Shown: one piece after another, positions 30,100 through 30,333 of the stretch
Layout of the letters: each line of letters opens with the position of its first letter
Numbering within the stretch: position 1 is the first letter of the stretch
Source: Escherichia coli
GTDB lineage: Bacteria; Pseudomonadota; Gammaproteobacteria; Enterobacterales; Enterobacteriaceae
NCBI RefSeq assembly: GCF_003334385.1
Contig: NZ_QOWN01000051.1
Length of the DNA stretch: 32,463 nucleotides
Strand: one strand, 5' to 3'
The notes under the pieces: generated by a model
Databases searched by the model: none
Seen by the model: only the letters and a program-made list of their open reading frames with translations
What the model was told of the DNA's origin: nothing
Translations under genes and position numbers: made by a program

Positions 30100-30333
30100 T
30101 TAATAATCAGATCGGATTAATGTTGGTGTGTTTATAACACCAACATTAATTTTCCTGGGGATATATTCTTCCTGTTCATTTGAGGCCAACTGCCTGACGT
30201 TTCTCTCCGAATATTCCATTATCTTAATGTTGACTTGTTGACCAGCTTCGCCCCTGTATGCTGGCATCAACCCTCTTTTAGACTGAACACGCCACTCAGT
30301 CTCCTCCCTTTGCGGCGCAGCCTGCATTTTCAC
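30100..30333 (-). CDS. ykgL: Small hypothetical protein (77 aa), ykgL-like
   Basis: Track ORF at the position and orientation expected for ykgL; no recognisable domain, and its 3' end overlaps the ykgMO terminator hairpin, so protein-coding status is uncertain. Confidence 0.35.
   Translation of the reverse strand: MKMQAAPQREETEWRVQSKRGLMPAYRGEAGQQVNIKIMEYSERNVRQLASNEQEEYIPRKINVGVINTPTLIRSDY
30117..30155 (+). terminator. Rho-independent terminator of ykgM-ykgO
   Basis: 13-bp perfect stem TTAATGTTGGTGT / ACACCAACATTAA with 7-nt loop followed immediately by TTTTCC, about 50 nt after the ykgO stop. Confidence 0.7.

What the first reader, a model, noticed from the sequence alone, without database searches (positions are those of the whole stretch)
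30100..30333. ykgL-like ORF convergently overlapping the ykgMO terminator; its protein-coding status is questionable
The minus-strand 77-aa ORF ends inside the ykgMO terminator hairpin, has no recognisable domain, and lies in AT-rich DNA. It may be a real small protein whose 3' end shares a bidirectional terminator, or an annotation artefact within the ecpR far-upstream regulatory region.
Basis: inference. Interest (0 to 1): 0.2.

Follow-up and report, generated by a model that had tools for sequence, protein, structure and literature searches.

The report
ykgL: unconserved ORF over ykgMO terminator
The ORF is the annotated E. coli K-12 gene ykgL, but it is broken in nearly half of E. coli genomes, evolves like non-coding DNA and is no longer than chance allows, so it is most likely not a working protein gene; the selected feature here is the hairpin-rich 3' end of the zinc-starvation operon ykgMO on the other strand.

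Summary
The minus-strand ORF 30100..30333 (77 aa from GTG; RefSeq aa from the ATG at 30327) is E. coli K-12 ykgL. It lies 34 nt from the ykgO stop and reads across a strong plus-strand hairpin.

It does not behave like a protein gene.
- Among 15 haplotypes the ORF is 75, 64, 63, 35 or 11 aa long. The causes are three independent 1-bp indels and two nonsense changes.
- The frameshifting 30166 allele is in 2215 of about 5059 complete genomes that carry the region. A second frameshift (35-aa ORF) is in at least 1415.
- PGAP already labels many copies "frameshifted".
- Codons 1-53 carry 5 synonymous, 18 nonsynonymous and 2 nonsense SNPs (P=0.72). ykgM and ykgO next door are clearly constrained.
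- SNP density equals the synonymous-site density of those neighbours.
- There is no Pfam or NCBIfam match and no homologue outside Escherichia among 1.84 billion representative proteins.
- An ORF this long appears in 39% of shuffles of the intergenic region.

An outgroup suggests the K-12 form arose by a +1 insertion that pushed the stop through the hairpin. The hairpins keep pairing through G-U on the plus strand, so they fit a ykgMO 3' end, not a bidirectional terminator. Translation in K-12 was not testable. The feature is ordinary and already annotated.

The parts
30100..30333 (-). The ORF of the finding: 77 aa from GTG at 30333. RefSeq ykgL is 30100..30327, 75 aa from ATG.
   Evidence: Only a weak SD-like GAGTG lies 3 nt upstream of the ATG (read from the sequence). 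The consensus scan finds no sigma-70-like site on the minus strand anywhere in 29400-31200.
29662..30065 (+). ykgM (29662-29925) and ykgO (29925-30065): the Zur-repressed operon for the zinc-free paralogues of ribosomal proteins L31 and L36. It converges on the ORF.
   Evidence: SNPs: ykgM 10 synonymous / 4 nonsynonymous (P=0.0002); ykgO 6 / 0 (P=0.0014). Operon drawn with promoter, Zur site and terminator in PMC7297116.
30060..30087 (+). Hairpin H1, 9 pairs, spanning the ykgO stop codon. It forms on the plus-strand RNA only.
   Evidence: The minus-strand fold of this stretch is no better than shuffles (z = +0.77).
30094..30112 (+). Hairpin H2 (GUCUGAUU-AAU-AAUCAGAU). It contains the ykgL stop codon (30100-30102).
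   Evidence: The G30094-U30112 wobble of K-12 is G-C in most other strains.
30114..30153 (+). Hairpin H3 plus the U-run 30150-30153: the probable intrinsic terminator or 3'-end stem-loop of ykgMO. It encodes residues INVGVINTPTLI of the 75-aa ORF.
   Evidence: -19.8 kcal/mol, z = -5.1. 95.9% of cells paired across 10 haplotypes including the outgroup. The terminator scan did not flag it because the U-run is short. RNA-seq counts fit transcripts that end here (inference).
30166..30167 (.). Site of a 1-nt length difference (TT in K-12, T in others). The shorter allele moves the ORF's stop into the H3 loop, giving 63 aa.
   Evidence: The short allele is in 2215 of 5426 complete genomes. The outgroup L024 has the short state, so the K-12 state is probably a derived +1 insertion.
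30251..30254 (.). C-run (CCCC in K-12, CCC in others). The deletion truncates the ORF to 35 aa.
   Evidence: The deletion junction is found in at least 1415 genomes. PGAP marks these copies 'frameshifted'.
30150..30153 (.). T-run after H3. It is one T shorter in the L012/L013 lineage, giving a 64-aa ORF.
30169..30327 (-). Codons 1-53 of the ORF: spacer DNA that evolves neutrally.
   Evidence: 5 synonymous / 18 nonsynonymous / 2 nonsense SNPs, codon positions 8/8/9, P=0.72. Not alignable with the outgroup beyond about 30212.

Best explanation
The 234-bp stretch is the 3' flank of the Zur-repressed ykgMO operon, and the minus-strand ORF laid over it is not a conserved protein gene.

Shown:
- The first ~90 nt after the ykgO stop form three plus-strand RNA hairpins.
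- The remaining ~180 nt evolve at the neutral rate.
- The ORF is disrupted in a large share of E. coli lineages, has no relatives outside Escherichia, and is no longer than chance allows.

Inferred:
- H3 followed by UUUU ends or stabilises the ykgMO transcript.
- The ancestral ORF was about 63 codons long and stopped in the H3 loop.
- A +1 insertion at 30166/30167 in the K-12-type lineage shifted the frame, so the ORF now runs through H3 and stops in H2. This produced the 75-aa ykgL that annotation pipelines propagate.
- The reported 'co-induction' of ykgL with ykgMO under zinc starvation is ykgMO 3'-UTR signal counted over the 50-nt overlap.
- Any minus-strand transcript is incidental convergent transcription.
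For: Identity: the window matches MG1655 at 100% and carries the RefSeq ykgL annotation.

ORF decay:
- 15 haplotypes among 24 sequences give ORFs of 75, 64, 63, 35 or 11 aa. The causes are three independent 1-bp indels and two nonsense SNPs.
- The 30166 short allele is in 2215 genomes and the 30251 deletion in at least 1415, out of 5059 genomes that carry the region.
- PGAP flags 'frameshifted' pseudogenes.
- One strain has a 250-bp deletion that removes the start codon.

Neutral evolution:
- 36 SNPs in 225 nt (16%) matches the synonymous-site SNP density of ykgM (10 of 61 sites) and ykgO (6 of 32).
- Codons 1-53 have 5 synonymous / 18 nonsynonymous / 2 nonsense SNPs, P=0.72.
- ykgM and ykgO show strong synonymous excess by the same test.

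Orphan status:
- 109 clusters, all Escherichia, 42-103 aa.
- A full HMMER pass over 1.84 billion representatives finds only YkgL variants, plus one match to a long repetitive protein.
- No Pfam or NCBIfam match.

Chance: an ORF of at least 77 codons appears in 39% of shuffles.

Outgroup L024: only the ~145 nt after ykgO align, at 76.7%. It shares the short state at 30166 and three linked SNP states with the non-K-12 alleles.

Hairpins: with strand asymmetry of 8 against 2.

RNA-seq in E. coli Nissle: ykgL rises 2^9.27-fold, alongside ykgM (2^9.73) and ykgO (2^9.51). Its counts (~16,700) equal the ykgO read density (~365 per nt) times the ~50-nt overlap (my arithmetic).
Against: - No ribosome-profiling, proteomic or start-site data for ykgL could be reached, so translation in K-12 is not excluded.
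- The ORF is intact in about 56% of genomes, including a lineage 22 substitutions away from K-12.
- Codons 54-75 show an excess of synonymous changes: 8 against 3, P=0.005, or 0.012 with a structure-aware null. This was a post hoc split on 11 SNPs.
- Nei-Gojobori omega is 0.3-0.4 for K-12 against L010, and 0.23 for the last 24 codons against the outgroup. The matching permutation tests give P=0.07 and 0.08.
- The outgroup also carries a 77-aa minus-strand ORF at this position, although most of it is unrelated in sequence and frame.
- H3 has only four U's after it, was not flagged by the terminator scan, and has no U-run in the outgroup. Its terminator role is therefore inferred, not shown.
- It is not stated whether the Nissle RNA-seq library was stranded.
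Confidence: 0.7

Rival explanations
1. ykgL is a real but young small protein restricted to some lineages. It would be translated in K-12-type strains and dispensable, and so repeatedly lost in other E. coli lineages.
For: - The ORF is intact in K-12-type and L010-type alleles despite 22 differences.
- There is a weak excess of synonymous change overall (P=0.07) and in codons 54-75 (P=0.005-0.012).
- Stranded RNA-seq studies list ykgL-ykgO as convergently overlapping transcripts, so the minus strand is transcribed.
- A -10-like TATCAT lies ~30 nt upstream of the ATG on the minus strand (read from the sequence).
Against: - Codons 1-53 evolve neutrally and include two nonsense alleles.
- At least 44% of genomes carry frameshifts.
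- The Shine-Dalgarno sequence is weak and no consensus promoter is found.
- There is no domain and no homologue.
- The ORF length is what chance gives.
- The only part with a synonymous excess is the tail that entered this frame through a recent insertion and that overlaps RNA hairpins.
- The region is absent from the genome-reduced strain DGF-298, whose 125-kb deletion spans it. This shows dispensability only.
Confidence: 0.2
2. The functional product is a minus-strand non-coding transcript. It would run antisense into ykgO and ykgM and damp leaky ykgMO expression by transcriptional interference or RNase III cleavage, as in an excludon. The ORF would be incidental.
For: - ykgL-ykgO is listed among 165 convergent excludons seen in at least 50% of stranded MG1655 RNA-seq samples.
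- A cis-antisense sRNA candidate, ECS017, is reported opposite the ykgM promoter.
- No minus-strand terminator separates the ORF from ykgO.
Against: - The excludon call uses a relative coverage threshold. With genes 34 nt apart and a 90-nt ykgO 3' UTR, overlap is almost automatic.
- The region matches no Rfam family.
- No promoter-like site lies on the minus strand.
- The DNA upstream of the hairpins evolves neutrally.
- Zur repression alone accounts for the ~1000-fold regulation of ykgMO.
Confidence: 0.1

Closest known systems
E. coli K-12 ykgL (b0295; RefSeq WP_001147279.1, 'protein YkgL')
   Same: Identical sequence, position and strand. The flanks are the same: ykgM-ykgO on one side, ecpR on the other.
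   Different: Nothing differs; this is that gene.
Taxonomically restricted 'ORFan' annotations and chance ORFs in intergenic DNA
   Same: No homologue outside the genus, no domain, variable length, frameshifts among strains, neutral substitution pattern and a length expected by chance.
   Different: It carries a curated gene name, so annotation pipelines propagate it by protein identity. Its 3' end overlaps a structured, conserved RNA element of the neighbouring operon.
Intrinsic (Rho-independent) terminators of convergent gene pairs
   Same: A stable stem-loop lies directly after the last gene of the operon and is followed by a U-run. It sits between convergent ORFs.
   Different: The stem is AU-rich with 4 G-C pairs. 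There are only 4 U's. There is no A-tract upstream, so there is no U-run on the other strand. It was not flagged by the consensus scan. The U-run is missing in the outgroup.
Convergent excludons (overlapping 3' UTRs of neighbouring genes)
   Same: Published stranded RNA-seq analysis lists the pair ykgL-ykgO.
   Different: Mutually exclusive expression has not been shown for this pair. One partner is probably not a gene.

Membership tests
E. coli ykgL (b0295) | Sequence identity and synteny (ykgM-ykgO, then ykgL on the opposite strand, then ecpR) | tested here: met
   100% identity to MG1655 over 701 nt; RefSeq feature table
Protein-coding gene under purifying selection | Reading frame kept intact among strains and species | tested here: not met
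   ORFs of 75, 64, 63, 35 or 11 aa among 15 haplotypes. Frameshift alleles in 2215 and at least 1415 of ~5059 genomes.
Protein-coding gene under purifying selection | Excess of synonymous over nonsynonymous change; third-position bias | tested here: inconclusive
   Whole ORF: 13 synonymous / 21 nonsynonymous / 2 nonsense, P=0.07. Codons 1-53: neutral, P=0.72. Codons 54-75: 8/3, P=0.005-0.012. Controls ykgM and ykgO: P=0.0002 and 0.0014.
Protein-coding gene under purifying selection | Homologues beyond the genus, or a recognisable domain | tested here: not met
   The outgroup ORF is itself an orphan.
Protein-coding gene under purifying selection | Evidence of translation (ribosome footprints, peptides) | not testable with these tools
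   Supplements that could be reached do not list ykgL or were truncated. Other papers are not held.
Intrinsic terminator of ykgMO | Stable stem-loop directly downstream of the last gene | tested here: met
   H3: -19.8 kcal/mol, z = -5.1; 96% of cells paired across haplotypes
Intrinsic terminator of ykgMO | U-rich tract immediately 3' of the stem | tested here: inconclusive
   UUUUCC only, partly usable for G-U pairs at the stem base. Below the scan's threshold. One T shorter in L012/L013. Absent in L024.
Intrinsic terminator of ykgMO | Transcript 3' ends mapped at the site | not testable with these tools
   Indirect only: ykgL read counts in the zinc-starvation RNA-seq equal the ykgO read density times the 50-nt overlap
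Bidirectional terminator | Hairpin flanked by an A-tract upstream and a U-tract downstream, so that both strands see a U-run | tested here: not met
   The minus-strand hairpin is followed by CCGAUCUGAUUAUU. H1 does not fold on the minus strand. G-U pairs become A-C mismatches on the minus strand.
Convergent excludon | Overlapping transcripts from both strands and mutually exclusive expression | not tested
   Overlap is reported in PMC12288877. Mutual exclusion has not been examined for this pair.

The most novel reading that the evidence does not exclude
The 75-codon ykgL of K-12-type strains is a gene being born. A single +1 insertion would have extended a chance ORF through the ykgMO terminator hairpin, and the new tail (codons 54-75) already shows an excess of synonymous change. 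Alternatively, or in addition, its transcript would act as an antisense brake on the zinc-starvation ribosomal-paralogue operon.
Probability: 0.08. Interest if true: 0.4.

Novelty: already known. Interest (0 to 1): 0.1.

Why it matters
It matters little beyond annotation hygiene. ykgL is carried as a named protein in thousands of E. coli annotations, and it can show up as a top 'induced gene' in zinc-starvation transcriptomes. That signal is most simply the ykgMO 3' UTR. Treating ykgL as a doubtful ORF avoids over-reading such data. If the minority reading were true, it would be a small, tidy example of an ORF extended by a frameshift into a neighbouring gene's terminator.

Tried and rejected
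- Terminator-like site at 30311-30326 on the plus strand, which could have marked a longer ykgMO 3' UTR. It folds at only -5.7 kcal/mol, z = -0.21, so it is chance.
- H1 as a minus-strand terminator using the U6 run inside ykgO. It does not fold on the minus strand.
- Rfam scan of 29000-31200 at E <= 1: nothing.
- NCBIfam and Pfam: nothing.
- Genome-contig scan with the YkgL alignment: 24 pattern matches, none confirmed.
- Scan with EcpR: one divergent Escherichia-labelled genome (L024), plus Klebsiella and Pantoea without ykgMO next to ecp.
- Search for L024-like alleles among RefSeq E. coli genomes: none.
- Two short-query searches meant to count the 30251 deletion. One used a mistyped query and the other could not tell run lengths apart. 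They were replaced.
- Literature on translation or transcript ends of ykgL: no main-text mention beyond lists. Supplements were unhelpful or not held. The search for 'b0295' returned only reference anchors.
- Nei-Gojobori dN/dS alone suggested omega of 0.2-0.4. I set it aside in favour of permutation nulls that keep the mutation spectrum, because that method gives omega below 1 on neutral sequence with few, transition-rich changes (established knowledge).
- No structure prediction was run. An orphan without an alignment would give an uninformative model.

Full report
**What is there.** The window is E. coli K-12-type DNA. A 701-nt stretch around the finding is 100% identical to MG1655, and 5059 of 5426 complete E. 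coli genomes carry it. RefSeq annotates, in order, ykgR, ykgM, ykgO, ykgL on the opposite strand, ecpR and ecpA. The reported ORF (30100..30333, minus strand, 77 aa from GTG) is exactly as described. RefSeq starts ykgL two codons later, at the ATG at 30327, giving 75 aa. The ORF's stop lies 34 nt from the ykgO stop.

**The hairpins.** The plus-strand RNA downstream of ykgO folds into three hairpins: H1 at 30060-30087, H2 at 30094-30112 and H3 at 30114-30152. The fold energy is -34.7 kcal/mol against -18.7 for shuffles (z = -5.4). H3 alone gives -19.8 kcal/mol and is followed by UUUUCC. The ORF reads through all of H3 and stops inside H2. The ORF is only mildly AT-rich, at 43.6% GC against 48.6% for the window.

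**Is the ORF more than chance?** No. In 2000 dinucleotide-preserving shuffles of the 1.1-kb ykgO-ecpR intergenic region, 39% contained an ORF of at least 77 codons. The mean longest ORF was 75 codons.

**Relatives.**
- A word-indexed search of 5.8 billion proteins found 109 clusters, all from Escherichia, with lengths from 42 to 103 aa. Many were 63-64 aa with a different C-terminus.
- A full HMMER pass over 1.84 billion representative proteins found only these variants, plus a weak multi-stretch match to a 2426-aa repetitive protein.
- Pfam and NCBIfam give nothing.
- The ecp operons of Klebsiella and Enterobacter are not next to ykgMO. Their homology with this window begins only at about 30622. 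The ORF therefore lies in Escherichia-only junction DNA, not in the conserved ecpR upstream region.
- The published 'promoter island' between ecpR and ykgL maps to about 30736-31134 by my coordinate conversion.

**Variation within E. coli.** I aligned 24 sequences: the window, nine RefSeq genomes chosen at even steps of identity, and loci retrieved through YkgL variants and through YkgO. They fall into 15 haplotypes.

| ORF length | Haplotypes | Cause |
|---|---|---|
| 75 aa | 5 | intact |
| 64 aa | 1 | T-run 30150-30153 one base shorter |
| 63 aa | 1 | one T fewer at 30166/30167 |
| 35 aa | 7 | that change plus one C fewer in the run 30251-30254 |
| 11 aa | 1 | nonsense at 30292 |

- A second nonsense SNP lies at 30240.
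- PGAP already labels these copies 'frameshifted' or 'hypothetical protein'.
- Allele-specific searches of the complete-genome collection show the short 30166 allele in 2215 genomes and the 30251 deletion junction in at least 1415. At least 44% of the genomes that carry the region therefore lack the 75-aa ORF, and at least 28% retain only 35 codons.
- One further strain has a 250-bp deletion (30246-30495) that removes the start codon.

**Substitution pattern.** I used a permutation null that keeps each SNP's base change and moves it to a random position with the same base.

| Region | Synonymous | Nonsynonymous | Nonsense | P |
|---|---|---|---|---|
| ykgM | 10 | 4 | 0 | 0.0002 |
| ykgO | 6 | 0 | 0 | 0.0014 |
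| ykgL, whole ORF | 13 | 21 | 2 | 0.07 |
| ykgL, codons 1-53 | 5 | 18 | 2 | 0.72 |
| ykgL, codons 54-75 | 8 | 3 | 0 | 0.005 |

- Codon positions are 10/10/16 for the whole ORF and 8/8/9 for codons 1-53.
- The other five frames of the same DNA give P values from 0.11 to 0.79.
- SNP density over the ORF (36 in 225 nt, 16%) equals the synonymous-site density of ykgM (10 of 61) and ykgO (6 of 32). The stretch as a whole therefore evolves at the neutral rate.
- Codons 1-53 are the frame shared by the 75-aa and 63-aa forms, and they are neutral.
- Codons 54-75 lie over H2 and H3. Their P is 0.012 when only unpaired positions are permuted.
- I cannot fully explain that last result. It rests on 11 SNPs and a post hoc split. 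Three of the SNPs sit at positions 1, 4 and 7 of the H3 loop. This part of the frame is not even translated in the non-K-12 alleles.
- Nei-Gojobori omega values of 0.2-0.4 are not backed by the permutation tests (P = 0.07 and 0.08).

**Outgroup.** One divergent genome labelled E. coli (L024) has the same gene order; its EcpR is 85% and its YkgM 92% identical. Only the ~145 nt after ykgO align, at 76.7%. Beyond about 30212 the DNA carries 40-nt and 10-nt insertions and is not recognisably homologous. L024 has its own 77-aa minus-strand ORF. It shares only ERNVRQL...DTS...MLMLV with the 63-aa E. coli form, and it is itself an orphan with a single database hit. L024 matches the non-K-12 alleles at the 30166 length difference and at three neighbouring SNPs. 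The 63-codon form that stops in the H3 loop is therefore probably ancestral. The K-12 form, which runs through the hairpin, would be a derived +1 insertion. This rests on a single outgroup.

**The hairpins and their strand.**
- Across ten distinct sequences, including L024, 96.3% of cells pair, against 24-49% when partners are slid by 1-3 columns. There are no double-sided compensatory changes, so the shuffle control is uninformative.
- Eight stem polymorphisms keep pairing on the plus strand through G-U and would be A-C on the minus strand. Two do the reverse. That is suggestive, about P = 0.055 on a one-sided sign test.
- On the minus strand H3 is followed by no U-run, and H1 does not fold.
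- This fits a ykgMO 3' end, not a bidirectional terminator.
- Against a canonical terminator: only four U's follow the stem, the scan did not flag it, and the outgroup has no U-run.

**Expression data from papers.**
- In E. coli Nissle treated with calprotectin, ykgL rose 2^9.27-fold together with ykgM (2^9.73) and ykgO (2^9.51).
- Per nucleotide, ykgO has about 365 reads. Multiplied by the ~50 nt of ykgL that lie under the ykgMO 3' UTR, this gives about 18,000 reads, close to the ~16,700 observed. The 'induction' needs no ykgL transcript (my inference). The paper does not say whether the library was stranded.
- A stranded-RNA-seq survey lists ykgL-ykgO as a convergent overlap. Its criterion is relative coverage, and the genes are 34 nt apart.
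- An antisense sRNA candidate opposite the ykgM promoter has been reported.
- Zur repression gives about 1000-fold regulation of ykgMO.
- I found no ribosome-profiling, proteomic or start-site evidence for ykgL.

**Verdict.** The stretch is the structured 3' end of ykgMO followed by neutrally evolving spacer. The ORF laid over it is the already annotated ykgL, which is most likely not a functional protein gene (confidence 0.7). A young, dispensable protein (0.2) or an incidental or regulatory antisense transcript (0.1) cannot be excluded without translation and transcript-end data. The feature is already known and ordinary. Interest is low.

Noticed in passing
window 30103-30168 (codons 54-75 of the ORF, over H2 and H3): Excess of changes that are synonymous in the 75-aa frame: 8 against 3, P=0.005, or 0.012 with a structure-aware null. 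The first 53 codons are neutral. Small sample, post hoc split, unexplained.
   Followed up: partly
window 30191-30208: An 18-nt run, TGCCTGACGTTTCTCTCC, is identical in all E. coli haplotypes and in the ~25%-diverged outgroup L024, just before a 40-nt insertion in L024. A run this long has roughly a 0.3 probability by chance.
   Followed up: partly
window 29633-29650: A perfect 18-bp palindrome, GTTATGTTATAACATAAC, lies between a promoter-like site (29600-29628) and the ykgM start. It fits the known Zur operator of ykgMO (own knowledge; compare).
   Followed up: no
window ~29600-29660, minus strand: A published deep-sequencing study reports a cis-antisense sRNA candidate, ECS017 (92 nt; ~275-nt northern band), opposite the ykgM promoter. 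Minus-strand transcription therefore exists across the operon's 5' end.
   Followed up: no
L024:1936-2169 (minus strand): The divergent outgroup has its own 77-aa ORF at the equivalent position. Only its last ~24 residues resemble the 63-aa E. coli form, and it has a single database relative.
   Followed up: yes
L032 (window equivalent 30246-30495 deleted): One E. coli genome has a 250-bp deletion that fuses an upstream minus-strand ORF to the ykgL C-terminus, giving the 97-aa P0112.
   Followed up: yes
P0001 (103 aa), P0003 (84 aa): Some E. coli alleles carry in-frame tandem duplications inside the ORF: PAYRGEAGQ once more in P0003, and a ~28-residue block in P0001.
   Followed up: no
L038 (NZ_CP104618.1), locus 421-1134: A strain otherwise identical to K-12 here has IS1A inserted in ykgO, which truncates it. 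ykgL is untouched.
   Followed up: yes
window 29900-30600 equivalents on plasmids: 13 of the 5088 matching places lie on plasmids rather than chromosomes.
   Followed up: no
window 29100-29661: The DNA around ykgR and upstream of ykgM is far more variable among strains than the genes: 38-54% variable alignment columns and many gaps. The YkgR protein accession is nevertheless the same in every locus that has it. Part of this is probably misalignment around indels.
   Followed up: no
Genome-contig collection: The scan with the YkgL alignment matched 24 stretches but confirmed none by tblastn. The EcpR scan returned only one Escherichia-labelled genome, not a typical E. coli. The reason is not understood.
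   Followed up: no
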